A stretch of DNA of 64,000 bases, from the NCBI GenBank assembly GCA_051362555.1, contig CM120645.1, positions 4,774,001 to 4,838,000 on the forward strand, written 5' to 3'. This DNA comes from Lingula anatina. Lineage: Eukaryota > Animalia > Brachiopoda. How positions within the stretch are numbered: the first letter of the stretch is position 1; the number at the start of each line of letters is the position of its first letter. The notes below the pieces were generated by a model. That model saw nothing but the letters and a program-made list of their open reading frames with translations. It made no database searches and had not been told where the DNA came from. Shown piece after piece: positions 1 through 35,800 of this stretch. The translations under genes were made by a program, and so were the position numbers.

Positions 1-1190
1 TCTTTGTAGTTTCGCTGAATGAAGGTAGCATTGATGATATTACTGACCACTGGGCTTGCGGACATGTTTTTCATCTTCTGTTTCCCTGCCTCCTCAATTA
101 ACTTCAAGGCTAGCTCATGAAGATTTTGGCATGCATTCAAACTAAGACGCTCATTTCTACTTCCTTGGTTGTCTTGTTTTCTACTAAGTAACTGCTCAAG
201 GATTTCTTTGGCTACAATGACATGGTTTATTCTCCAGCAATAATTTTTTTCTTCAATGATAAACTGGCTGGCTGAATGGCTATGCAGAGAGTTAAGGGTT
301 ACTTGCTCACATTCTGAAACATTGAGCAGTTTGGCAAAGAATTGAGCAGGGACAGGAACATGGCCATAGAAGTAAGCTAAGGCTAGAAAACCCAAAACAT
401 ACTGCCATGGCTTAAGGTCTCCTGAATAAGGAATTTGGAGATAACCCTTAACATATCTTTGAATGCCAACATATTCTTCTGCATACACGGTAATTCCAAA
501 TTCCCAAACATAGTGGACTTCTCTTTCTTTCACCTCATGGACAAGCTCTTGGAGTTTAGATCTTTTATCAGCACCTTTACAAAAGGTGGAAAAAGCCACA
601 TAAAATCTTGGTGCCTCATCTATTGCAACCTTTCCAGAAAGCCAAATCTGATCTAACCTGTTCCTTTTGCAGTTGAGGTCAATTGGTTGATTATAACGCT
701 GCACACAGAGAACAATCACCCTCACCTGTAGACAAAGATCGAAAATCTTGTGAATTTGTGTGATATCTTTACCATCAATCAAGACCACAACAGGGAGATG
801 GGTGTGCAAATAAAGCCACTCAATGCGACTGAACACACTGCTTGCATTCAACAGGGGAGATGACACATAGACACAAGCACACATCTCATCACAGTGTAAA
901 TCCCAAAGAGCTCTCATACCAAGTGTGGTACCCCCAGAGCCAGGCTCATGGTTCAGACTTATGAGAGCAGACTTTCCCTTCTCAACAAAAAATCTTATAG
1001 TTTTCAACAGATATGGAAGGACATCCCGTCTTGCATCGTAACAGCCAATGTTCAACTCATCCCAAGATATCTGCCCTCCACGTAGAAACTGTTCACCATC
1101 TTCAGTATCATCGCCCTTTGCGTAGATTTTTTTGTCCTTTGACAAGTAAAGAACATCCAGCTCTGCATCTAGCCATGCTGCATCTTCTGG
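1..1190 (-). CDS. SAMD9: SAMD9-like NTPase half (frame after the frameshift), open to window edge
   Basis: Manual translation gives ~396 stop-free codons: PEDAAWLDAELDVLYL...EQFLRGGQISWDEL...DARRD...LISLNHEPGSGGTTLGMRALWDLH (Walker A, cf. SAMD9 HPGCGGTT)...LPVVVLIDG (Walker B)...WEFGITVY...WRINHVIVAKEILEQL. Absent from the ORF track. Confidence 0.9.
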
Positions 1191-4100
1191 CTATGGTAAG
1201 ATGGGGGCCACACCCTTCAGCATCTTCATGAGGCAATTGAAAGGCTTCTGCCTGTCCAGGTATTTGAAGACCATAAATGCTTTCTATTTCAAAACAGATC
1301 CTTTCCAATGAAATAATTATTGGATCAATTTCTAAATCTGAGCACAATGACTTTAAATGCTGCATCTCAGTAGGATTATCTGGTAAAGATGGAATACAGA
1401 ATGCAACTTTCAAAGAGTTGACATTTTCATCGAGCTTTATCATAAATCGTTTAAGATGCCCAAGACTTTGATCAACCCCATACCATAGTATAACAGCAGT
1501 CAAAACCCTGCTGCTGTTGCAATACTCAGCAATCTGAATGCAATGTTCGTCAACCATGGGACCTGCTCTCTTAATCCAAGACCTTGGATCATCAAGCATC
1601 TCATGACAGTTATGATACCCTCTTGGGAAGAACCAATTAACTGACCTTGGCCCGAGGTTACCAGGTTGATCTTGCCAGGTGGAAATTTCCAAGTACCTTG
1701 CTGTTTTCAAAAGAGGCTCACAAACACTGAAAGTACCATTTTCCCTACTCATGGTATCAAAATCAACAACTTTGAACCATGGGATACTTGTTAAAGCCTG
1801 CAAATGCCTTGTATCATGCTTACATTGGCCAACAATGAGTAAAAACTGCTGGTAATCTTTGAACATATCAACCTTATCCAGAAACTTCTGCAGTGCATCA
1901 TCTCTCAATGAACGTGGTTTACCTTGACCTTTAACAACCTCACTATAGGGGGTAGGCTTTTGAAACCATTTGTACACACTGTCATGGTGTTTAACAGATA
2001 GTATTTGATTTGATGCACCACGTCTACCCCAAATTTCCCTCATATTCCATCTACCCTCCCTATGCCACTGCTCTGCCACACAAGGTCCCTCCATTCCTTG
2101 TGAAGGAGAAATGATAACTATTCCAAACAACATTCTATTGTACTCATGTTGAATGTATCGAAACTTTGGCCGAGAAGTGAAGTACTCATCAAGGAACAAA
2201 TTTTGATAATCTGCATCTATTCTACCATCACTGATGCCAATCAATTTATGGGGTGGATGAGAACACTTTTCTATTCCAATTATTATGTAGGCATTGCCTT
2301 CTCTGCCTGGTGTATTCCAAAAAGACACAACATCCTCCATAAAAGAAGCCTTCCCCTTATCTCTACAGAAATATACTTCATCAGAAGGTTTAAATTCAAG
2401 ATGTTCAGAGGCAGAACTTTTCAGGCACAAAGACTCAAAAATTTTGTTTGACATTTCTGTTTCATATACTTGTTCACTTTCAGTTGATTGTTTTAGCATA
2501 GGGAACTGAGTACCTAAAGTCTTGTTATCACGTTTTTTCCTCTGTATCTTTTGCCAGTATTGTTGTTGTCCATATTCTGACCCTACAAGTGTGACCTCAG
2601 AATCAGTTCTCTGAGGCAATCCCTTTGAAGAAGAAAGAAAATGTAAAGGAGTGTTGTCCCTAGAAGTCAAATCGCTGGGACAAGTGACAAAAGAGTCCAA
2701 TTCAGAGAGATCAGAATCAGAACACAATGCTGCATCGTCAAAGCATGACTCTTCTTTCAGATCTTCATTTTCAGTATCTGAAATAGGCAAGCTGACCACT
2801 TGTTCAACTATCTCAATACCCTTTGAATTTTTCCTCAAATCAAAATATGGACTTTTATCTAAGAATCTTTGAAGAGGGCCTACCCCAAACTGTTTGAAGC
2901 CCCCTTTCCGACGGACTGCATCCAGTATCTCCTCATAAGGCTTGGAATAGGTTCTATTGTAGTTCAAAGGGTTGATCAATCCATTAAGAAATTCTACTGC
3001 TTTTTGTTCCTTGGTTTTAGCTTTTTCATCTTTTCTGATGAATTTCCTGCTGCTTTCTGGAAGTAAGGGGAATATAACGGGGAAGTTTATTTGAGGAGAT
3101 TTATCAAATTTGGCAATACTGGTTATGGTAAAGTCTTGAAAAATTCGTCGGCAGACGCTTTTCCGCCGACGTAATTTTTTTCACTTTGAAAACTTCGTCA
3201 ACCTTGAAAATGAGGTATTCGATAATTGTCAGGGTTTTGTTTGGGTAAGATCATCAGAGGGGGATCGTTCGCGATCCGAGAGAGACGGGAAGGCAGTTTT
3301 CATGTCTTCATCAGGAGATCTTTCACGATGTAAGGAAATATAAAATCCAATTCTCTTATTAGTTCACAGGACTCAGAAACTTTGTTCGTGGAAGATTATC
3401 AGTGGGAGATCATTATTTTATCCCCCCCCCCCTTTAAATTTTTAAAAATAATTTATATTTCTTCATCTTATCTTTAACCACCCCCTTCCTCCCCCGCTCA
3501 CGGCATATCTTGAGCGTTGCCAAGTGCGTAATTTGTTACATAGGCCACGACCAGTTTATAATGCAAGGTTGCAATTAGGCTTATCTTGATCCCTCTCCTC
3601 TATCAGGAGGTATGTTTGTTACCGACAAGACAATTCTCAACGAGTAAATTAATATAACTTTATCGAGATGCACTAATAAAAAGATTATTATTAACCACCA
3701 GAAAATGACTTGAGAAGTAGTGATAAATATCCCACAATATATGACGGACAAGGATAAAAGCCGGTAAGGAGTCGGGGAGACGTAATTTTGAAAAATTTGT
3801 CTGATTTACGCAAATGAAAATTTTTATTAATTTTCAAGCGACGAAATTTTCAAGATTTTATTACCATATATCATTATGATCCATTAACAGGGGCGTAACC
3901 AGACCTTTTAAAATTGTACACACATATTTTCAAAATGCCCAAGTACAGCTAAATATAGACTTATGCAACAGATGAAGGGCAGTTTAAATTATTAGAGGTG
4001 GCAAAGACTTCATTTGGGGCAGTTTAAATTATTAAAGGTGGCAAAGACTTCATTTGTGACTAGTCAAGTGATCATATATGAAGAGGTGAATGTCAAATGT

Positions 4101-7100
4101 GTAGTTGATAGTTGTTAATATAGAAAAATATGTTTATAACCTGGTCATCCAAAAAATACTAAAAGGCACTCAGGTAATTATCAGTAAATTAAACATTCTT
4201 TTTTAATAACTGTACCTTTTTCCATAATAACTTAGGCAGAATGAATGCACTTTTGAGTAGTGGTGATTTTAATCTTATAATTCTTATCTAGGTATATGTA
4301 TATAAGGCCACACTTTTTTATTTTTATGGATGACATCCTCTGGGGACCCTGAAATCGGTGTGAGAAGGAAAAAAAACTGATTAAGTAAAGGAATGCTGTC
4401 AGTACACAGCTGGAAACACAAATTTACCACAGAAACACGTATCAAACTAACAATATGTCTTTATACATGCTCTCAAAATATTAAATCATTGTGAATACCT
4501 CGTAAAAGGTAAAAAAGTCATGAATAGATATGCTGCATATTACCAAATCTATTTAAGGTTATTTCAGGCATTTTGTTGGTATAGCAATCAGTAAAACAAA
4601 TATCAAACAAACAGCGTATCTTTATTTGTACTCTCAGAATATTAAAGCATTATGATCACTTCACAGAAATGTTAAAAAAATGATGTAAAGATATGCTTAA
4701 TACTACCAAATCTATTAAAGGTCATTTCGGTCGACGACATTTTGTCTATTTCGACTCACACGAAGCAGCCAAACTGTCAGGTGGCCTGTCCTACCTTCAG
4801 CCCACCAAATACCTCGACGCCCTTGTTGCCCCTTTTTTCGCTACAAAAAACTGGATTTGGGCAGAATGTCACTGAAATGTTCCAGGCGATAATCGTTGGC
4901 CACCGCCAGCCTTTCGTATAATTGTAAAGGTGATATCTCCATGCCCAATATCAATGGCATACCAATCCAAAACGACGGCCCCTGTTCTCATTATGACTTT
5001 AATTGTCATGTAATTTGAAAGTAATCCTAGAGATAATGACCTTTGCGACAAACGACTTTGTTGGGGGTGACTTTTTTTTCAGAGAACGGATGAAAATCGG
5101 TGCGCGCGCAGGATGTCATCCATAAAAATAAACAAGGCAGCAAAGCTGTCAAATGTACAGACAAAAAGCAGGAAATAACTATGCACAAAATAGGCTACTG
5201 TCAATTCTGATGCAAAAGTACATTATGTTAAACTGTAAATTCAACATCAAATTTTAATTATGCTCAACAGGTAATACCAATGAAAGTAAAATGTGTAACA
5301 AGCATAAGGCTTCAGGCCCATGAGAGTTCAAGTTCACACTTTGAAAATGTATAACTTCCAGAAAAAGAAGCCAATTAGACTGCTTTTCCAACTCAGGCTG
5401 CATGCCGATTTTCGAACTTGACCTCCGTTTTAGTAAGATCGATTATTCCTGAGAGTTTCACGACAACAGGCCTATCGGTTTTCCTTGAAATGTGTTTACA
5501 GAGTTGCATATATGTTGAAAAGTGAAAGAAAATAGCATAACTTCTACAATAATGGCCCGATCATCCTGATTTTCGAACTTGACCTGCGTTTTATGAATAT
5601 TCATCAGCTCTTTAAATATAAAGCCCAAAAGTAAAACTGCCTTCCACTTATCGTGTTTACAATGAGGTGCAAGGTGCCGGCAACGGCGATGACGGCGACG
5701 ACAGACGCAGGTGATGGCAATATGTACAGACACATCTGTACATATTTACTGTACTGTTTGAGAACAGTAAGTGACATGGTTTTTCTTAAATGGTCATCAT
5801 GGGAGCAGTGCCCAAAATAGGTTTTTTTCAAATTTTGATGCAATATTACATAATGTTTAACAGCATAATGACCATCAATTTTTAAGAATAAAATATTAGT
5901 ATCATGGATATTCAGAAAATGTGACTAGCAAAGGTCTTCAGGCCCATGGAACTTCAAAGCCACAACTTGAAAATGCCAAAATGTAAACAAGACAGCACTG
6001 TTCTGAAATGGGTTTATTTCCATTTTTAACAATTTTTAACATAAAACGAAATTAACAGTTTACTGCCATTTTTATATGATCAACTAAGAAAATTGATGAG
6101 ATTGGAAAAATATCAATAGAATAGTGTTAAATGTCCAATTTCTTCCATTCTGAGATTCTGAACATAGTGAATGATTCAATCTGACAAACTGCAATGATAT
6201 GAGTTTATTTCCATTTTTGAAACTTTATTACACAATACATGATAACAAGTTTACCATCATTTTTACAAAATCAACTAACAATGTTGTAAAGATTCAGGAA
6301 ATGTCAAACAAACACTTTTACGTATCTTATTAGTTTAATAATGAGACTGTTAACATGCCTAAGAATTGAATCTGAGGAAATGTGAAAAATATGCTGAAAA
6401 GTGAAAAAACAACATAACTTCTACAATAATGGCCCGATCATGCTGATTTTCGAACTTGACCTGCGTTTTATGAATATTCATCAGCTCTGTAAATATAAAG
6501 TCAAAAAGTAAAACTGCCCTCCACTTATCGTGTTTACAAGGAAAGTGCGCGGCGCCGGCATCGGCATCGGCATCGCCATCGCCATCGGCGACGACAGACG
6601 CAGGTGATGGCAATATGTACAGACACATCTGTGTCTGTACATAAAAAGTGTGGCCTAATCATGGTATTTAAGAAAATCACTTTGCTGCCTTAATATAGGT
6701 GAATATCTTATGAATACAAATAAATTGGTAAATGTTAACAGTTATTTAATAAACTACATATAACTTACGTTTTGCTGGGTGTTCTATGATCTGCTGGTTG
6801 TGGTCTCCAATAACAACATTGCTGCTTGTAATGTTTATCACATTGGTCACATGTTTTTCTGAAAAACGAGGAAATGTTAACCTTTTTTATTACAACATGC
6901 AGAGTAGACACATTTATATGGAAAAAAAAGGACACCACCTCCAGTGCTGTGCTGACAAGCTCTACAAAATGCAATAAATGAAGGTTCTCAATTTTTCATA
7001 GAAATTTACAAAACCGTGGGGAAAAGTACATGTAAAGGGCCAAATCCAAGGTTGCAGTATAAGATTGTGAATGTAAGACATCCCATAGTAAATATACAAA

Positions 7101-9062
7101 CTTGAAAATTTGTTAAGTGTAGATGAAAAGCAGGTCAAAGGTCAAATTCAAGGTTATAGTAAGATTGCCAAAATATACGACTCTCTATTCATGCACTCTC
7201 TAAATGATTTACAATTGTATCCAAACATTCTGTTAAGTTAATATTGAATAATGTCAGAACTATACCTTTACTGGGTGTAGATACTGTTATAGGTGTGAAC
7301 CTCCTTTCTGCTGCCGATGGAGGAATCAAAGGCTGCGGATCTCCTACACTCATTGATGAAGATACAGTAGTGTTTTCTGGTGGATTCCAAACCACTGTTT
7401 AATGGACAAAATTACATTCAGTACACGTTTTTAAAAATGTAAATAACAAGACACAACAAACTCTGCACGAAGACTTCTGCAATCAAAACCAGCCAACCTC
7501 CAAACTGACTAGCTCAGAGAAATACACTGCTTGGGCTGGCTCATTGAAAACGACATTCTTAAAGCAAAGTGAGGATCAAATTCAAGGACTTTTGAGGCTC
7601 CAATAAGTGCCTTTCAAGGGAAAATAATTGTCATTTATAAGGGTTTATTTTATCACTAAATGCTTACTAATTTCTTCAAGTACCCATTTGCTCTGACATT
7701 TAATCGAACCATAATCAACATTAATCAAATTATATTTATATAGACAAATTTCAAGTCCTTCATTTTGATAGTAAAATGGCAACAAACTAATTAACGTTCA
7801 TCAACGATTTTATTTCAACCACATAAAACAATATTATCTTTCGTATATGAGTAGGCTCAACTTTTCAATACTTTTTAACCTTATCACCTACTGTAGTTCT
7901 CTTTCTAACAATTCCACATTAACTTTTAGCTTGGGTTGTGTTTTTTGTTGTTTTTTTTTGGACTCCTTTTGTTCAGGCTTTCATAAGAAAGAATGGCACA
8001 GTAATCCTGTATGCTCTTCCACATTTGCAGAAAATAGTCACTTTTATGACAATGCAAAATACACCAAATCATAACATTTCTCATATTCAGTGATCCATAT
8101 TTTTCCTTATGTACAAAGCATGCAGAACTTACTTGGAATGGAAGCACTCTCTTCTTCCAATTGTTGTCCAATATCAGCAAGTCCACTCTGTCGTAATGCC
8201 TCACAAAGAGCATTAAATGCTTGATCATTTTTCTGTGTGAGTAAAGTGAGCAAAACTTCATTCTTTTCCATGGGCGTAGCTTCTGGGCTGTATTCTACTT
8301 CTTTCAAATCTTTCTCGTCAATTACATCTTTCTCTATAAGGGCTTTGCATAACTGTTCATTGTTTGCATTCCTAATGATCTTTTTGCTATACTTTTGAAG
8401 CAAGCGTTCCAGCTCAACTCTCATTCCTGGGAGAGAGAGAGGAAAAATCTGAATATATATATATAATAACAAGTTTTACAACTTTCAATAATTAAGTTAC
8501 TAGCAACTGCTTAAGAGCTTAAATATGTCTCTATAAATTAATTTTTTTGCTTTAATACAGTGACTTCAGAATGTACACATATAATCTGAAAATATCTAAA
8601 TTTAATCTTACCACTCTTAGCTCTTGGTTTGGGTTGCCTTTCAGATTGTTTGCTAGCTGTTGAACTTGATGATGCTGAAGAATCATTGTCAGAGAGGGAA
8701 GACAATCTGTTCCTAGAGCCTGGCAAATAAAGAAATATTGTTATCAAGTTATATTAAGTTATATACCTACTGGTATATTACAATTTTTCAAAATATGAAT
8801 AATGGATTTCTACATGCACACCTGACAACGGCCATTATCCCCATTCTCTAACAACTTCATTGGCTACTTATAAGAGCATGGATTCTTTTTTAACTTTCAA
8901 GTCCTTTTTTAGAACATGGCACTGCCATATATTTATGTGAACTTCTGACCTGAACAAGGGAATGCTTCAGTGAATAAATAAATAAATTCCATGATCCAGA
9001 AAGTAATAGCTATATTATAATTATAAATAATATCTTCTAAAGGCTGGTATGTTACTTTATTC

Positions 9063-9117
<55 letters not shown>

Positions 9118-11064
9118 TTTCATATTGTCAGTGACATTTTTGATAGTGTTTTAAATAATTCACATTTTGTAAGGCAATAATTTATTATAATAACTATTAT
9201 CATAATTAATATGTGATTACCTTTCCTTTTTTTGCCACCTTTGGCTCCACCTCCTAGTCCAGTTTTCCTCTGGGCATTAGCATTCTGAGGAATTTGTTGA
9301 TCTGCCATCGTTAAGACAAAATTAATCTGAAGACAAAAAAGTCTTTCATGTTATCCAATACAAAAACGACGTTTTCCAGTGTCTGTAAAGTATATTGATT
9401 GAGCCAATAGCTTTGAAATACATTATTGGAACATGGGCAAAATCAAATTATGAATAATTTACTATAACATGCACCTAAACAGGATTCCAATGTCTGCGCT
9501 TGTGTGAAAAGCATACCATTTGGCATGGTGGTTCTGCGATTTGACCTTGCTGTGAGCAGGGAATTATATTGTATAGGTAATTACAATATAATATACGATT
9601 TAATTCCCTGCTGTGAGTGATGGACTGAAGGTTTCAGGACATATATATACAGTATTTAAGGGCATGTAGAATTTTCTTTTGCTCTAAAATCCGGTATACT
9701 GGAAGCGAATGACATTTTGTTCAAAAAGATTTCAGGAATTTTGTTATGAAATTTGTAGAATGGGCTCAATCAAAATACTTCTTGTTTATTATTGGAAACT
9801 TCAGTAATAATAAATATATTAACATATCATAAGAAAACCATGGTTTTTGGCCTATTTATTAGCTAAATTGATATTCTGTAGAATTTATAGGCTAAAAATG
9901 CCAGGGACTGTCTGGTTGACTTGGTTCTCATATTGAGGTACTCTTTTGTGCTCCTTGATCCCCCTTCTTAGTCTAACATACATGTAAAGTGAAATGCACT
10001 TTTCCTATCCCATATTACAAACTTTACCAGCCTGGGATAGCGCTAACACTCACCAATTTAATCAAAAGCTGAAACTGACTTCGACTGTCTAAACAAAATG
10101 TGGTTGATTTGACTTGTAATGAAAAAAGTAGTGATTTGGCTAAGTGAAAAAAATGCTAGTGCTACCCCAGTCAGCAAGTAACAAACCTTTTTCCTTGCAA
10201 GCATATACAGTTGCACATCAATTGGCCATGCACGTATACATCCCGATACTGCTTCAACGGTTGTAAGAGAAAAATTTTGCAGCCTTCTCCCATTATCTAA
10301 ACTTCTGCCAAATCAACATACTGAGACAGTCCTTTATATATAACTGCATGCATTTCCCTTGGACAGCATCTCTGAAACAACATCAAGCATTATAGTAATA
10401 TTTGATAAAAATATGTGGCAAAGTCATATTTTGTATATGCACTGGGCCACTGGCACATACCCCTACTAAATATATACATATACTGCCACATGTAGTGGGC
10501 ATCTTTCCCAATTCGTACGTAGAGGGTGACACCCCCCCCCCCCTAAAAAAAAAAAAATAATAATAAGTAAATAAAACAAATAAAATTGTATCTTTTAAAT
10601 CCTACAAAGGTCCATCAAGTGTACCTACTGAAACATACAGAAAGATATGAGTTTATTTGTGAGTAACAGACAACTACTTTTAAAAAGAAATTCGAGTTGC
10701 CGGGAAAATTCCAGATCCAGACAGAAAACGTTAAAAAAAATATATCCGGTTTCGCTTTTATCAAGGCCCACCATTTAGATCTAATGATTTACAATTGTAT
10801 CCAAACATTCTGTTAAGGTAATATTAAATACTTTCAATTTGAATTAAAGCAATAAAGAAATGTTTTGGTTTTCAAGGCCGTTCTACATTTCAATACTTTT
10901 CAGTACAAACAACTACCCTGTACATGTATACTTCCTTTTCGTGACGGTTACCGTGCTAACTATCTACAGCTGTTGTTGAATCCTACTCCAAAAATACAAT
11001 CTTGGCACTAGACTGACTAGTACTACACATTTAAAAGATGTTTTTCAAAACATGAACATACCAT
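1..11064 (-). CDS. SAMD9: SAMD9/SAMD9L-family STAND NTPase immune gene (CARD-[LOTUS-like]-AlbA_2-SIR2-like-NTPase), spliced, 3' end outside window, one frameshift at ~1191
   Basis: Exons 11064-11062 (ATG|GTATGT), 9326-9221, 8719-8612, 8426-8133, 7394-7266 and 3056-<1 join in frame through canonical GT-AG sites. Motifs HLEFKP/GNAYIIIGI, IPWFKVVDFD, FLRGGQISW, HEPGSGGTT and PVVVLIDG occur in SAMD9 order. The symbol denotes the family, not proven orthology. Confidence 0.85.
1191..3056 (-). CDS. SAMD9: SAMD9-like large exon, 5' part: LOTUS-like, AlbA_2 (Schlafen-like) and SIR2-like domains
   Basis: ORF 1108..2979 extends upstream to acceptor ttccccttacttccAG|AAAGC at 3056. AlbA_2 motifs EHLEFK, SFWNT, AYIIIGI; SIR2-like motifs FLLIVG, WFKVVDFD, NWFFPRG. 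Confidence 0.9.
3124..3868. mobile_element. Non-autonomous DNA transposon-like element with imperfect ~27-bp TIRs
   Basis: Left end tatggtaaagtcttgaaaaattcgtcg is the near reverse complement of right end cgacgaaattttcaagattttattaccata; CpG-richer than flanks; TA at both ends. Confidence 0.5.
3977..4056. repeat. 40-bp direct tandem duplication
   Basis: gggcagtttaaattatta(g/a)aggtggcaaagacttcattt present twice in tandem. Confidence 0.9.
4306..6655. mobile_element. PIF/Harbinger-type non-autonomous element (~0.83 kb), right TIR interrupted by a HINE
   Basis: Left TIR ggccacacttttttatttttatggatgacatcct. Right TIR is split into aggatgtcatccataaaaataaa (5110-5132) and aaagtgtggcc (to 6655). TAA TSD at 4303-4305 and 6656-6658. 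Internal ~160-bp diverged tandem duplication (~4460-4730). Confidence 0.75.
5133..6644 (-). mobile_element. Helentron-associated non-autonomous element (HINE/DINE-1-like), copy 1
   Basis: Reverse complement of 20147-21938: T-run plus subTIR atgtacagaca, adjacent inverted repeat, (gccgat/gccgtc)n microsatellite, core repeat, 3' subTIR tgtctgtacat plus hairpin gacagctttgctgcc; inserted in a T-tract. Confidence 0.85.
7266..7394 (-). CDS. SAMD9-like gene linker exon (Ser/Pro/Thr-rich), phase 1-1
   Basis: Acceptor aaacAG|TGGTT and donor AAAG|GTATAG (alternative phase-1 donor 6 nt earlier); VWNPPENTTVSSSMSVGDPQPLIPPSAAERRFTPITVSTPSK; preserves frame between the CARD exon and the large exon. Confidence 0.7.
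8133..8426 (-). CDS. CARD (death-fold) domain exon of the SAMD9-like gene, phase 1-1
   Basis: Acceptor tctctctcccAG, donor A|GTAAGT; ELERLLQKYSKKIIRN...LCKALIEKDVIDEKDLKEV...TPMEKNEVLLTLLTQKNDQAFNALCEALRQSGLADIGQQLEE fits the six-helix CARD pattern. Confidence 0.85.
8612..8719 (-). CDS. SAMD9-like gene Ser-rich exon, phase 1-1
   Basis: Acceptor tatttgccAG, donor G|GTAAGA; GSRNRLSSLSDNDSSASSSSTASKQSERQPKPRAKS; 108 nt. Confidence 0.75.
9068..9114. repeat. (TA)n microsatellite
   Basis: Perfect dinucleotide run. Confidence 0.95.
9221..9326 (-). CDS. SAMD9-like gene exon 2 (N-terminus INFVLTMADQQIPQNANAQRKTGLGGGAKGGKKRK)
   Basis: Acceptor ttttttgtcttcAG, in-frame ATG at 9308, donor AAAG|GTAATC (phase 1); basic KKRK cluster. 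Confidence 0.75.
10032..10170. mobile_element. Possible small degenerate MITE
   Basis: ctgggatagcgctaaca versus reverse complement of tgctagtgctaccccag (14/17 match), ~140 bp apart. Confidence 0.35.
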
Positions 11065-20146: not shown

Positions 20147-21938
20147 TTTTTATGTACAGACACAGATGTGTCTGTACATATTGCCATCACCTGCGTCTGT
20201 CGTCGCCGTCGCTGTCGCCGTCGTCGCCGTGCACTTTCCTTGTAAACGTGATAAGTGGAAGACAGTTTTACTTTTTGGCTTTATATTTACAGAGCTGATG
20301 AATATTCATAAAATGCAGGTCAAGTTCGAAAAACAGCATGATCGGGCCATTTTTGTAGAAGTTATGCTGTTTTTTCACTTTTCAGCATATATGCAACACT
20401 GTAAACACATTTCAACAAAAACCAATAAGCCTGTTGTCATGAAACTCACAGGAAAAATTGATCTTACTAAAACGCAGGTCAAGTTCGAAAATCGGCATGA
20501 TCGGGCCACTATTTTAGTAGTTATGCTTTTTTTTTCACTTTTCAGCATATATGCAACACTGTAAACACAATATAAGAAAAACAGATAGGCCAATTGTCAT
20601 TAAACTCACAGGAGTGGTCATTTCTGCTAAAAGGCAGGTTAAGTTCAAAAATCAGCATAATCGGGCCATTATTTTAGAAGTTATGCTGTTTTTTACATTT
20701 CCTTAGATTCAATTCTTAGGCATGTTAACAGTTTCATTATTTAATTAATAAGATATGTAAAAGTGTTTTTTTGACATTTCCTGCATCTTTACAACATTGT
20801 TAGTTGATTTTGTAAAAATGATTTTAAACTTGTTATTGTATATTGTGTAATAAAGTTACAAAAATGGAAATAAACTCATATCATTGCAGTTTGTCAGACT
20901 GAATCATTCACTATGTTCAGAATCTCAGAATGGAAGAAATTGGACATTTAACACTGCTCTATTGATATTTTTCCCATCTCATCAATTTTCTTAGTTGGTC
21001 ATTTAAAAATTGCAGTAAACTGTTAATTTTGTTTTATGTTAAAAATTGTTAAAAATGGAAATAAACCCATTTCAGAACAGTGCTGTCTTGTTTACATTTT
21101 GGCATTTTCAAGTTGTGACTTTGAAGTTCCATGGGCCTGAAGACCTTTGCTAGTCACATTTTCTGAATATCCATGATACTAATATTTTATTATTAAAAAT
21201 TGATGGTCATTATGCTGTTAAAAATTATGTAATATTGCATCAAAATTTGAAAAAAAACTAATTTGGGCACTGCTCCCATTGTGACCATTTAAGAAAAACC
21301 ATGTCAATTACTGTTCTCAAACAGTATAGTAAATATATATAAATGTGTCTGTACATATTGCCATCACCTGTGTCTGTCGTCGCCATCATCGCCGACGCCG
21401 GCGCCGTGCACTTTCATTGTAAACATGATAAGTGGAAGGCAGTTTTACTTTTGGGCTTTATATTTATAGAGCTGATGAATTTTCATAAAATGCAGGTCAA
21501 GTTCGAAAATCAGGATGATCGGGCCATTATTGTAGAAGTTATGCTTTTTTTTCACTTTTCAACATATATGCAACACTGTAAACACATTTCAAGGAAAACC
21601 AATAGGCCTGTTGTCATGAAACTCTCAGGAGTAATCGATCTTACTAAAACGCAGGTCAAGTTCGAAAATCGACATGCAGCCTGAGTTGGAAAAGCAGTCT
21701 AATTGGCTTCTTTTTCTGGAAGTTATACATTTTCAAAGTGTGAACTTGAACTCCCATGGGCCTGAATCCTTATGCTTGTTACACATTTAACTTACGTTGG
21801 TATTACCTGTTGAGCATAATTAAAATTTGATGTTGAATTTGCAGTTTAACATAATGTACTTTTGCATCAGAATTGACAGTAGCCTTTTTTGTAATTTCCT
21901 GCTTTTTGTCTGTACATTTGACAGCTTTGCTGCCTTGT
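20147..21938 (+). mobile_element. Helentron-associated non-autonomous element (HINE), copy 2, most complete
   Basis: ttttt-atgtacagaca-cagat-gtgtctgtacat head, (gtcgcc)n, ~160-bp tandem units (caggtcaagttcgaaaa-like at 20316, 20475, 20635), second head at ~21343, 3' subTIR tgtctgtacat plus stem-loop and ttgt end. Confidence 0.88.
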
Positions 21939-32800: not shown

Positions 32801-35800
32801 AGGGAAAAATTCAGATAAGACGGAGAGAGAGATGCAGTATTTTTTTCTTAGTGTTATAACACACTGGTGAAGACTCCAGAAATTTCTGAGAAGTTGAATA
32901 GAGAAGGTTTGAGACTCATATTGAAGATATTTTTCCAGTAAGAATAAGATTCTTAGAAGTGAATTTCAGGTGGTCGTGAAGCAAAGGATAACCTTTAGAA
33001 TTTATATATTGTGGAGAAAACTTTCTTGAAATGCGGCCACATATGACAAATGAACAATGATATTTAAGGTAGGTGGAGATGTGAAAATTATCCAGTTGCA
33101 TGCTGTTTTTAAAGCTTGCTGAACTTTACATGCACAATGTGGATTTTCACAAACATTTCCTTGCATTTTTTTGTTTATTTTTATTTTTTTATTTGTAAAG
33201 AGGTGTTTTGTAGAAATCATTTGATTTATAGGTAAAATGTGATTTAATAGTCCGAGGCAGTGCCACACACAGTGGTCTTTTGCTAGTTTCCAGGGACGAG
33301 TGTTTCTTATGTGAATGGTTTATTATTCTTCATATCCAGGTGTTAGAATGTTCATGCTGCGATCATTTAGTGTTTCACTCGGATATGAAAATACTGAAAG
33401 ATTGCCAGGCTGTTTTCTAACTGTTGAAACTGACTTTATCCCACTGCCAGTGCTTCAAACAGTAGGATAATTGCACTTGTATTTCACTCACAGGCTTGCC
33501 TGTATTGTCATACGTTTTGTTGCGTTCGTCCTCTTGCTCGTAGCACCAGTCATGGGCAAAGTCAGTTATAACTTCTCGCTGTCCACTGGATTTTGTCATA
33601 CAAGATCAAATTATATCTCAACTGTGTCTTGATATAATTATATCTCAATATAACTATAAATATTATGTCGTATACAGCAGATAACTCATGTTGTAACTAG
33701 TACTTAGTTAAAAATAGGTCTTTCTCTGGCCCCCATCCCTATGTACTCCCTTATTCAAACCCTCATCCTACTCTCTGAGTGTACCAGCTGTGACACCTGG
33801 ATACTGCCACACCCTTCAGGTAACTACATCACCCCACCTGACCCCCAGCAGACAGCTGGTGCTCTGATGTCACACCTTGTGGAGAGATTATTGGCGGAGA
33901 TTGTTCATTCTGAAAAAAAAAAAAAAATCAGTAGCTACTATTATATTAGAACATGGATTAATACTTAAGACCATTTTTTAGTGTTAAGTTTTTTCGTGAC
34001 ACTTGCCCGTGGTATGAGATTCCAGGATAAAGTATAATTAGGAGATATCCTTGGAGTTGCATTTATCTATCAATGAAATGATTTGTCCAATCTTTTCTAT
34101 TATAGATAGAGAAGTTGGAATTTGTTGTGGATTTTTACTGGAAGAAAAAAGAAGAAAAGACTGAGGAACAAACAAATGAAACTGCCTTCACAATTATGAT
34201 TATCAGTGATGCTTTTCACCTTTGTTTCTTTTCCTCTGATGATTAGAATGTGGTTTCTCTTTCATCCTGTTGTTACTGTTAATAATCTACTGCGTAATTG
34301 ACCATGGTGAATTAGGTTTGTCACTTGCCCAATGATAATTATTGATCCCCCCTTCCCCTGTGTCATTTCTTTTGTTCATTACCAGGTTGCAATTAACTTC
34401 TCTTATTACCCGTCAACAATTTTTTTTTCTTCTGTAAAAAGTTTTGATAGTCTTGTGTGAATTCTGAGATTGGCAAGGGTTATTATCATTCATTCTACCT
34501 CAAGAAACTCAATTAATTTGAAGGAAAAAGACCATATTTTATTCAATCAAAGCTTATTAATATAACCACCAATGTTTATTTTAATAGATTTGTGTGTGGA
34601 TTATTTTCAAGAGCTATTTGATATCTACAAATATCGGTTGTATTTTCATTTATCTTGGCATATTTTGGCTCTACTTTCTCATTTCTTTCTTCTGACTATC
34701 ACTGTTATCTTCAGCATGACACTTTGAAAAAACATCTGCAAAAGTTAATCAGACATTTCATTCCGACCAATTCTTCACACAGGAACCAGCTTATTTTCCT
34801 ACCACCTCCATCTTTTTCCTTTGTTAGACTGAAGTAATTTTGTTAGGTTTTTATTATCCCCATAATTGGATAGAGTCGAGCCTCATTAAACATTAGCGTC
34901 TTTTATCCCACTGTTTATAACCCTGGAAAAGAGAGTACATGACCCTAAGGATGAGTCATAGAATCTCTCAGTTATTTTGCCAAGAGCTAAGTTTGTTTGA
35001 TGGTGTGTGAAATGCTGCATCAGATAAACCTATTCTTCTCTATTCTGTTGTCTTTTTGGTTTAGTTCTTGTGCTTTGGTTAAGTGACAGGAAACTACTAT
35101 GCAGTTTAACTTGGTGTTTTAGTTGTTGTGGAAATAAGCCTGATAGTGAGATTTAAACTTAAATAATCATTTTTTTCCAGTCAATTTTTTAAATTTCGCA
35201 TTCATCCATTTATCTCTCCCTTCATCCATTCTTCCATTCATTTCATGAAGTTGATTAAAACCAGGTGAAGCGCCTTCATGTTTTAGGATTTGATGGCACA
35301 ATTGACACAGATAGCCATCACAATGACATTTTTTACCGTAGCAAATACTACTCTCACTTCATCTGGATGAGGTTAGTAAGATGATACAATTTGCCATACC
35401 ATCCTGTCATGTAATTTGCATAGGGATATTGTCGGCTTATGATGGATCAGGTCTCCTTTATGACTTCATTTAGGATTATGTGATTCATAGACTGGGCTCC
35501 TGCCAGCAGGGATCTGTTTCACATAAGGACTTTTGAAAGAAATAAGTTGAAATTTTTGTGCCAAAATTTAACCTATTTTGACTCAAGATAAATCAGTAGG
35601 AGGTGTATGAAATGAGTAATTGTGCCTGTTTTGGAACCAGAAAAAGATCGCTTATGTTTTAGATTAATATATTTACTTCATTTAAGTGAACTCGCATTGG
35701 TTTTCCCCCCCAAATTTTTTTTATTTAATTTTAAATCCTGAAATATTCTGTTTGGGAAATATTGGTGCCTTATCGATGAGAATAACAAAAAAAATTGATA

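What the first reader, a model, noticed from the sequence alone, without database searches (positions are those of the whole stretch)
1..11064. Invertebrate SAMD9-like sensor combining a CARD, a putative LOTUS domain and a Schlafen-like nuclease on a STAND NTPase
Seen: small minus-strand exons splice in frame onto a >3-kb exon, giving basic N-terminus - CARD - S/P/T linker - winged-helix-like segment - AlbA_2 - SIR2-like - P-loop NTPase; no SAM domain is evident. Established: vertebrate SAMD9/9L are antiviral STAND NTPases whose AlbA_2 domain cleaves tRNA and shuts off translation, architecturally parallel to bacterial Avs defence proteins. Death-fold domains in place of SAM are reported for some invertebrate homologues. 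Inference: this protein could couple NTPase oligomerisation to two outputs, caspase/adaptor recruitment through the CARD (apoptosome/NLR-like) and RNA attack or binding through AlbA_2/LOTUS. The full combination is one I do not recognise as characterised.
Basis: partly seen in the sequence, partly recalled or inferred. Interest (0 to 1): 0.85.

Follow-up and report, generated by a model that had tools for sequence, protein, structure and literature searches.

The report
Invertebrate SAMD9 sensor with amyloid motif
This likely brachiopod gene is a SAMD9-family protein whose CARD-bearing form was already described, but it also has an overlooked exon for a RHIM-type amyloid motif and a predicted LOTUS RNA-binding fold shared with relatives in many invertebrates, so it likely works as an immune sensor that signals to a partner kinase rather than mainly cutting tRNA; the copy in this window is frameshifted.

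Summary
A 90-nt exon (6858-6769) was missed: 37 RNA reads in three runs splice it to 3056. The large exon is frameshifted near 1192; intact alleles are transcribed. The closest protein (91% identical) is Lingula XP_013415988.1, the CARD-SAMD9 example in Mekhedov 2017, so CARD+AlbA_2+SIR2+STAND is published. Not found in print: (1) the missed exon encodes a divergent RHIM; the motif sits just upstream of the winged helix in molluscan and hemichordate relatives, and its profile retrieves only RHIM amyloid structures; (2) the winged helix folds best like LOTUS domains (Z 7-8); (3) the core aligns end to end with Avs9-like Pseudomonas proteins (26%, E 4e-85); (4) the three nuclease acids are complete in 57 of 57 bacterial-side but 1 of 36 animal-clade proteins, so 'nuclease' is doubtful. 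Best reading: a STAND sensor that likely signals through RHIM/CARD assembly to a RIPK1-like partner. Function untested. An earlier scan note flagged an untested RHIM-like motif in an urchin SAMD9-like gene. New variant of a known kind.

The parts
11062..11064 (-).
   Evidence: GT donor seen; not covered by read lays; P0001 starts at 9308
9221..9326 (-). Exon with start codon at 9308, basic Gly/Lys N-terminus
   Evidence: AG/GT ends; matches P0001 1-29
8612..8719 (-). Ser-rich linker exon
   Evidence: stranded RNA depth 0.93 in bin 8401-8700 of X12
8133..8426 (-). CARD exon (Pfam match about 8406-8170)
   Evidence: PF00619 44.2 bits, cut-off 23.9; RNA depth 2.4 in X12, none in the flanking intron bins 7501-8100
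7266..7394 (-). Ser/Pro/Thr linker exon
   Evidence: RNA depth 2.15 in bin 7201-7500 of X12
6769..6858 (-).
   Evidence: 37 reads join its end to 3056; in P0001; best of 2200 window ORFs with a RHIM profile built without Lingula, 0 of 2000 shuffles reach it; no Pfam RHIM match on its own
2794..3012 (-). LOTUS-type winged helix at the start of the large exon
   Evidence: AlphaFold2 pLDDT 92; 6 of the top 7 of 48,161 chains are LOTUS-type domains, Z 7.0-8.0
2002..2409 (-). AlbA_2 (Schlafen-like) domain, Avs9-type; site residues Ala (2412-2410), Glu (2397-2395), Asp (2334-2332), Glu (2271-2269)
   Evidence: PF04326 28.8 bits; 37% identical to the AlbA_2 of Pseudomonas-type P0059, E 4e-17; site tally
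1318..1776 (-). SIR2-like domain (limits carried over from the published annotation of P0001 662-811)
   Evidence: match to human SAMD9 chains (E 0.001; profile, E 1e-35); Mekhedov supplement
1191..1198 (-). Frameshift in the window's allele, between SIR2-like and NTPase domains; off-frame stop at 1110-1108
   Evidence: intact in RNA of X12 and X13 and DNA of X2, present in DNA contig X1
690..1091 (-). STAND P-loop NTPase; Walker A HEPGSGGTT (950-924, GGT type), Walker B region 791-774
   Evidence: PF25199 E 6.5e-6; human SAMD9 chains E 2e-8; motif positions
1..689 (-). Helical part of the STAND module; gene runs off the window (TPR, OB fold and a Cys-pair tail lie beyond, by P0001)
   Evidence: 95% identical to P0001 855-1250; P0001 continues to 1823 aa

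Best explanation
The gene encodes CARD - RHIM-type motif - predicted LOTUS winged helix - AlbA_2 - SIR2-like - STAND NTPase (TPR and OB fold inferred beyond the window), and the intact protein likely acts as an immune sensor that, once its TPR/OB end binds a ligand and the STAND module oligomerises, would cluster its RHIM and CARD to seed assembly of a RIPK1-like kinase and CARD partners, with LOTUS and a probably weak or dead AlbA_2 holding RNA. Shown: exon order, the RHIM exon spliced to the large exon, the domain matches, the spread of RHIM and winged helix across an invertebrate clade, full-length homology to Avs9-like bacterial proteins, loss of nuclease acids in the clade. Inferred: ligand sensing, oligomerisation, amyloid formation, the partner, RNA binding. 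The window's own allele is frameshifted before the P-loop and is likely a null.
For: RHIM exon spliced in 37 reads, 3 runs. RHIM core 27-52 residues before the winged helix in 9 of 16 proteins with 30 or more upstream residues, against 3 of 563 downstream windows and a shuffle mean of 0.06 (pattern written after seeing the sequences). Profile of 10 such motifs retrieves 10 PDB sequences, all RHIM-type chains (5 RIPK1, 4 RIPK3, 1 viral reductase-like chain), best E 3e-6; 5 of 10 match Pfam RHIM. Named carriers: Ptychodera, Liolophura, Sinanodonta, Potamilus, Solemya, Mya, Haliotis, Lingula. A RHIM-bearing RIPK1-like protein is reported for Lingula, zebra mussel and lancelets, and the mussel one needs its RHIM for full NF-kB activation (PMC12119088, passages). 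Three core nuclease acids complete in 57 of 57 bacterial-side but 1 of 36 animal-clade proteins. LOTUS fold; sub-threshold Pfam OST-HTH in relatives P0008 (E 8e-5) and P0005.
Against: The Lingula motif is divergent: VVIG instead of V/I-Q-V/I-G, no Pfam match, and the P0001 version has a two-residue insertion and scores only 2.1 bits; single changes in the tetrad can abolish NF-kB signalling (PMC12119088). The Lingula AlbA_2 keeps more acids than most of its clade (A/E/D/E), so it may still cut RNA. LOTUS Z-scores are modest and within 1 of generic winged helices (6.9-7.1), and Foldseek gave no match at E 0.001. 7 of 16 eligible relatives lack the core pattern. No read joint linking the CARD exon onward was displayed. 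A frameshifted allele exists. No functional data.
Confidence: 0.55

Rival explanations
1. Vertebrate-style effector: the AlbA_2 domain is an active tRNA nuclease and CARD/RHIM only replace the SAM domain as self-assembly modules that bring nuclease domains together.
For: Lingula keeps three of the four positions mapped to Avs9 E14/D19/D45/E65, including the Asp whose mutation kills Avs9 activity, and the E-F-K motif; that Asp is invariant in 36 of 36 animal-clade proteins. Mekhedov 2017 proposed SAM and death folds are interchangeable.
Against: The first acid, invariant in 57 of 57 bacterial-side proteins, is Ala in both Lingula sequences; the second acid is present in 2 of 36 animal-clade proteins, while RHIM and winged helix are kept across phyla.
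Confidence: 0.25
2. In the Lingula lineage the RHIM has decayed and the CARD has taken over, or the gene is dispensable and drifting, so only the clade, not this gene, uses RHIM signalling.
For: Divergent tetrad, weak score of the P0001 version; this exon is among the least conserved between the two Lingula-type sequences (73% against 91% overall); a frameshift allele in real DNA.
Against: [quoted passage not shown]
Confidence: 0.15
3. The protein works in RNA or transposon control (germ-granule type, through LOTUS) rather than pathogen sensing.
For: Top fold matches are germline LOTUS proteins MARF1, TDRD5, TDRD7, Tejas; MARF1 pairs LOTUS with a nuclease (PMC7498356, passages).
Against: CARD, RHIM and STAND-TPR are innate-immune modules; the core is homologous over its whole length to Avs9-like proteins.
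Confidence: 0.05

Closest known systems
Lingula anatina XP_013415988.1 (LOC106177688), the CARD-SAMD9 of Mekhedov, Makarova and Koonin 2017 (PMC5445408)
   Same: 91% identical over the window's part (1133 of 1243 aligned residues), same exons; published as CARD, AlbA_2, SIR2-like, APAF1-like NTPase, TPR, OB fold.
   Different: That paper's table lists nothing between residues 162 and 451; RHIM, LOTUS and OST-HTH occur 0 times in its three supplements. The window's allele is frameshifted. Orthologue or close paralogue not settled.
Vertebrate SAMD9/SAMD9L
   Same: SIR2-like and GGT-type P-loop region match human SAMD9 chains; same core order.
   Different: No SAM; CARD, RHIM and LOTUS instead; the AlbA_2 domain does not find human SAMD9 chains at E up to 10.
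Bacterial Avs9 (Legrand et al. 2025, PMC12680541)
   Same: P0001 436-1778 aligns in one piece with all 1224 residues of Pseudomonas-type P0059 (26%, E 4e-85); P0059 has E14, D19, D45 as numbered for Avs9.
   Different: Animal clade adds winged helix, RHIM and in some a death fold, and loses catalytic acids. P0059 has Lys, not Glu, at 65, and the published Avs9 sequence itself was not in hand, so 'Avs9-like' rests on numbering, genus and architecture.
RHIM-bearing sensors: ZBP1, amphioxus RHIM-NACHT, fungal NWD2/HET-s (Kajava 2014, PMC4262963)
   Same: Short amyloid motif in a disordered N-terminus in front of a nucleic-acid-binding winged helix or a STAND domain.
   Different: [quoted passage not shown]
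Minimal LOTUS proteins such as MARF1
   Same: Best fold match (Z 8.0, rmsd 3.3, 67 residues); LOTUS next to a nuclease-fold domain.
   Different: Single copy, fused to a STAND sensor; RNA binding untested.

Membership tests
SAMD9 family | Core order AlbA_2 - SIR2-like - STAND - TPR - OB | tested here: met
   AlbA_2, SIR2-like and NTPase in the window; TPR and OB lie outside the window and come from P0001
SAMD9 family | Walker A with GGT/S and upstream His | tested here: met
   HEPGSGGTT at 950-924; Gly at that place in 52 of 57 animal-clade proteins; feature defined
Vertebrate SAMD9/9L subfamily | N-terminal SAM domain | tested here: not met
   No SAM match in three small exons and both large-exon frames or in P0001
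Vertebrate SAMD9/9L subfamily | tRNase-SA site E184/E196/E218/D241 | tested here: inconclusive
   The AlbA_2 domain could not be aligned to human SAMD9 by sequence; site mapped only through Avs9-like proteins
Avs9-like core | Full-length collinear homology from AlbA_2 to OB fold | tested here: met
   One alignment over P0059 1-1224, 26%, E 4e-85 (with P0001)
Avs9-like core | Complete acidic nuclease site (E14, D19, D45) | tested here: not met
   Ala/Glu/Asp in the window; complete in 57 of 57 bacterial-side proteins
Avs9-like core | AlbA_2-dependent cell killing | not testable with these tools
   Bench assay
CARD | Pfam PF00619 above gathering score | tested here: met
   44.2 bits against 23.9
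RHIM (clade-wide motif) | Profile similarity to RIPK1/RIPK3 RHIM | tested here: met
   10 of 10 PDB hits are RHIM-type chains, best E 3e-6; 5 of 10 motifs match PF12721
RHIM (this gene) | Canonical V/I-Q-V/I-G tetrad | tested here: not met
   VVIG; no Pfam match
RHIM (this gene) | Homologous to the clade's RHIM in sequence and position | tested here: met
   Profile without Lingula ranks the exon first of 2200 ORFs (15.8 bits, next 7.9); 0 of 2000 shuffles reach it; same position before the winged helix
RHIM (this gene) | Cross-beta amyloid formation and homotypic binding | not testable with these tools
   Bench assay
LOTUS / OST-HTH | Winged-helix fold closest to LOTUS structures | tested here: met
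   6 of top 7 of 48,161 chains, Z 7.0-8.0, but generic winged helices reach 6.9-7.1
LOTUS / OST-HTH | Pfam PF12872 above gathering score | tested here: not met
   No match for the window protein; relatives reach 22.8 and 17.1 bits against 23.8
Extended LOTUS (Vasa-binding) | Extra C-terminal helix | tested here: inconclusive
   No helix after the hairpin, but the model ends 7 residues later; the following sequence is Pro/acid/Ser-rich
LOTUS / OST-HTH | Binds G-rich or G-quadruplex RNA | not testable with these tools
   Property reported in PMC7498356

The most novel reading that the evidence does not exclude
Invertebrate bilaterians carry a second, Avs9-derived branch of SAMD9-family sensors, descended whole from a bacterial antiphage STAND protein, in which the nuclease output was retired and replaced by RHIM amyloid signalling to RIPK1 plus a LOTUS RNA-binding domain: a ZBP1-like role filled by a STAND protein in animals that lack ZBP1, and a counter-example to the view that animal SAMD9-type and bacterial Avs9 architectures arose only by convergence.
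Probability: 0.35. Interest if true: 0.85.

Novelty: new variant of a known kind. Interest (0 to 1): 0.62.

Why it matters
Molluscs, lancelets and Lingula have a RHIM-bearing RIPK1 but no reported ZBP1, so what feeds that RHIM is open; a STAND sensor with a conserved RHIM is a direct, testable candidate, and members are at hand in bivalves and abalone. The clade also shows an effector swap (nuclease acids lost, amyloid motif and LOTUS gained) on a core that is a full-length sequence homologue of Avs9-like bacterial proteins, which bears on the published convergence claim.

Tried and rejected
No genome is held for the window, so paralogues and a RIPK1 partner were not searched in this organism; tblastn found no second copy in the window. 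Single-sequence fold of 2725-3054 was poor (pLDDT 57.5) and not used. Foldseek gave no match at E 0.001. Atlas search gave only a lead (OST-HTH cluster, score 0.80). PADLOC: no match for the two window frames; three bacterial-side proteins hit PDC-S50 over AlbA_2 only. Word-index searches with alignment A1 added nothing. No GTDB locus found for P0059. No indexed RNA holder was listed; RNA evidence comes from raw-read runs of the same species label. The joint table was filled by intronic repeats. Rejected: assembly-only error as the sole cause of the frameshift (contig X1 has it); gain of function by truncation as in human SAMD9L disease alleles (those cut 71-85 residues after Walker B; this one cuts before Walker A); Z-alpha identity of the winged helix was considered, and none is named among the 50 rows, which does not exclude it. 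No complex prediction was run. Literature searches: SAMD9+RHIM gave 4 unrelated papers by listing; SAMD9+OST-HTH 0; SAMD9+'LOTUS domain' 0; Kaur 2021 has 0 occurrences of SAMD9 or RHIM in its main text. Subscription papers and figures were not searched.
Full report
Observation. The CARD exon 8426-8133 matches Pfam CARD at 44.2 bits, AlbA_2 passes its cut-off, and the distal frame matches nSTAND_NTPase5 below cut-off and human SAMD9 chains at E 2e-8. Two parts of the model are wrong. First, a 90-nt phase 1-1 exon lies at 6858-6769. At the 3056 acceptor, 22, 7 and 8 RNA reads in runs X12, X13 and X18 continue into the end of that exon, with agreement 1, 1 and 0.99; no other loose-end consensus was listed there. 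Second, the large exon is two ORFs. Read as it stands from ATG 9308 the protein stops at 885 residues, before Walker A. RNA reads show two extra bases at 1191-1192 (3 of 4 in X12, 6 of 8 in X13) with substitutions at 1195 and 1198, and DNA contig X2 is two bases longer over 1-3199. DNA contig X1 matches the window with no gap, and may be its source. So the frameshift is in sequenced DNA, and intact alleles are transcribed. The upstream junctions were not displayed as read joints; they rest on P0001, on phase, and on stranded coverage confined to exons. Junction 11062/9326 was not tested.

Identity. The best hit is P0001, Lingula anatina XP_013415988.1, 1823 aa, identical at 1133 of 1243 aligned residues and containing every exon including 6858-6769. 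The organism is therefore likely a lingulid brachiopod (inference). Mekhedov 2017 (PMC5445408; I read parts 1-2 of 4 of the text, part 1 of 2 of supplement 1, and term searches of all three supplements; the figure is not held) lists this accession as CARD 78-162, AlbA_2, SIR2_2, APAF1-like, TPR, OB fold. CARD on a SAMD9 core is thus published for this protein. RHIM, LOTUS and OST-HTH occur 0 times in those supplements.

Relatives. A full HMMER scan with the 620-residue first frame gave 297 proteins at E 0.001; the best 150 were examined. A tree of the SIR2-STAND core (119 of 145 core hits kept by a length filter, 451 columns, FastTree, midpoint root, no vertebrate SAMD9 included) splits 57 animal-type from 62 other proteins with support 1.0. 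Of the animal-type proteins looked up, named ones are from Branchiostoma, Ptychodera, Acanthaster, Gigantopelta, Sinanodonta, Liolophura, Potamilus, Solemya, Mya, Littorina, Haliotis and Babylonia; of four from the other side, one cluster is named as Pseudomonas and three give no organism. Many animal-type entries begin at the winged helix, as expected for gene calls on the single large exon (inference), so their N-termini are unknown.

LOTUS. With a 42-row alignment, AlphaFold2 gives an 82-residue winged helix at pLDDT 92. Against 48,161 chains the top rows are MARF1 LOTUS (Z 8.0), TDRD5 (7.5), TDRD7 (7.5), Egalitarian (7.3), an Smc5/6 subunit (7.1), Tejas LOTUS (7.1) and TDRD7 LOTUS 2-3 (7.0); unrelated winged helices follow at 6.9. 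Foldseek found nothing at E 0.001. Pfam OST-HTH is hit below cut-off in two relatives. A profile built without Lingula finds the window's domain (E 9e-7), P0001 and one further untrained protein besides its 40 training rows, and none of the bacterial-side proteins. LOTUS-type fold: supported with a modest margin. Minimal LOTUS domains bind G-rich RNA and not Vasa (PMC7498356, passages).

RHIM. The missed exon reads NVINITSSNVVIGDHNQQII at its centre. Of 16 winged-helix proteins with 30 or more upstream residues, 9 have a RHIM-like core 27-52 residues before it, against 3 of 563 downstream windows and a mean of 0.06 in 1000 shuffles (the pattern was written after I had seen the sequences, so the next tests matter more). 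A profile of ten motifs (the window's and nine chosen relatives) retrieves ten PDB sequences at E up to 10: five RIPK1, four RIPK3 and one viral reductase-like chain (recalled as cytomegalovirus M45), best E 3e-6. Five of the ten match Pfam RHIM; the window's does not. A profile of the nine relatives alone ranks this exon first among 2200 six-frame ORFs of the window (15.8 bits, next 7.9), and 0 of 2000 shuffles reach its score. Against: the tetrad is VVIG, and the P0001 version scores 2.1 bits. So the clade has a true RHIM and this gene a divergent homologue of it. RHIM carriers are scattered over the animal clade. CARD, RHIM core and winged helix together were seen only in Lingula; CARD also occurs in Babylonia, Gigantopelta and, below cut-off, Littorina (51 of the 152 stored proteins were scanned with Pfam). 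PMC12119088 (passages) reports RHIM-bearing RIPK1-like proteins in Lingula, zebra mussel and lancelets, RHIM-dependent NF-kB activation by the mussel protein, ZBP1 only from tetrapods on, and loss of signalling with some single tetrad changes. RHIM in front of a NACHT STAND is already known from amphioxus (PMC4262963, parts 1-2 of 4).

Nuclease site and origin. P0059 and three named Pseudomonas members have E14, D19 and D45, the numbering given for Avs9, but Lys at 65 where Avs9 has Glu. These three acids are complete in 57 of 57 bacterial-side proteins that cover the site (5 of 62 set aside) and in 1 of 36 animal-clade proteins (21 of 57 set aside for lacking the segment or having gaps); the third is invariant, the second is kept in 2 of 36. 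The window has Ala, Glu, Asp and a Glu at the fourth position, more than most of its clade but lacking the first. Its AlbA_2 is 37% identical to P0059's (E 4e-17) and does not find human SAMD9 chains. P0001 436-1778 aligns in one piece with the whole of P0059 (26%, E 4e-85). Legrand 2025 (PMC12680541; sections 6 and 7, passages, part 1 of 3 of supplement 2) concluded that SAMD9/9L and Avs9 are convergent; its supplements have 0 occurrences of Lingula, Branchiostoma, Acanthaster or Crassostrea but list three molluscan entries in the part I read, which I could not place. My result concerns this invertebrate clade only; it does not test the origin of vertebrate SAMD9, and direction of transfer was not tested.

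Mechanism. [quoted passage not shown] Rivals: active tRNA nuclease with CARD/RHIM as self-assembly modules (0.25); decayed RHIM or dispensable gene in this lineage (0.15); germline RNA control (0.05). The window's allele truncates before Walker A, unlike the human gain-of-function truncations that fall after Walker B (PMC8403910, passages), so it is likely a null.

Novelty. Searches for SAMD9 with RHIM (four unrelated papers by listing), OST-HTH (none) and LOTUS domain (none) found no description; PMC13245274 (passages) and PMC8195603 (term search of main text) add none. Figures, subscription papers and bioRxiv supplements were not seen and may bear on this. An earlier scan note (e1-7881579) flagged an untested RHIM-like motif at the front of an urchin SAMD9-like gene. 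Verdict: the headline CARD architecture is known; the RHIM-LOTUS front end on an Avs9-like core with a decayed nuclease site is a new variant of a known kind. Interest 0.62.

Noticed in passing
window 5100-6650: The long intron holds high-copy repeats that draw RNA depths of several hundred to 1500 from elsewhere in the transcriptome; the 137-nt direct repeat at 5529-5665/6406-6542 shares sequence with the 160-bp tandem unit at 20309-20701. Looks like a satellite-bearing mobile element; not classified.
   Followed up: no
window 4313-5136: 27-nt inverted arms 770 nt apart, MITE-like.
   Followed up: no
window 16696-16527, minus strand: Exon with AG/GT ends encoding the start of an HMG box (Pfam E 2e-4, below cut-off): a neighbouring HMG-box gene upstream on the same strand.
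   Followed up: partly
P0001 about 1780-1810 (beyond the window): A C-terminal pair of CxxC motifs follows the OB fold in P0001 and P0002; weak zinc-ribbon/IBR Pfam hits in P0018, P0128, P0013; P0059 ends before it. Not in the 2017 annotation table.
   Followed up: no
window 900-3055: RNA run X18 differs from the window at many fixed sites while X12 and X13 are near-identical, and P0001 is only 91% identical: divergent populations or cryptic species under one label.
   Followed up: no
window 33005-33319, minus strand: Weak Pfam Peptidase_C31 hit (E 8e-4, below cut-off; 1 of 42 ORFs); probably chance.
   Followed up: no
P0117, P0109, P0128 and others: Some animal-clade members appear to lack AlbA_2 while keeping the RHIM, consistent with a dispensable nuclease; seen by eye, not counted.
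   Followed up: no
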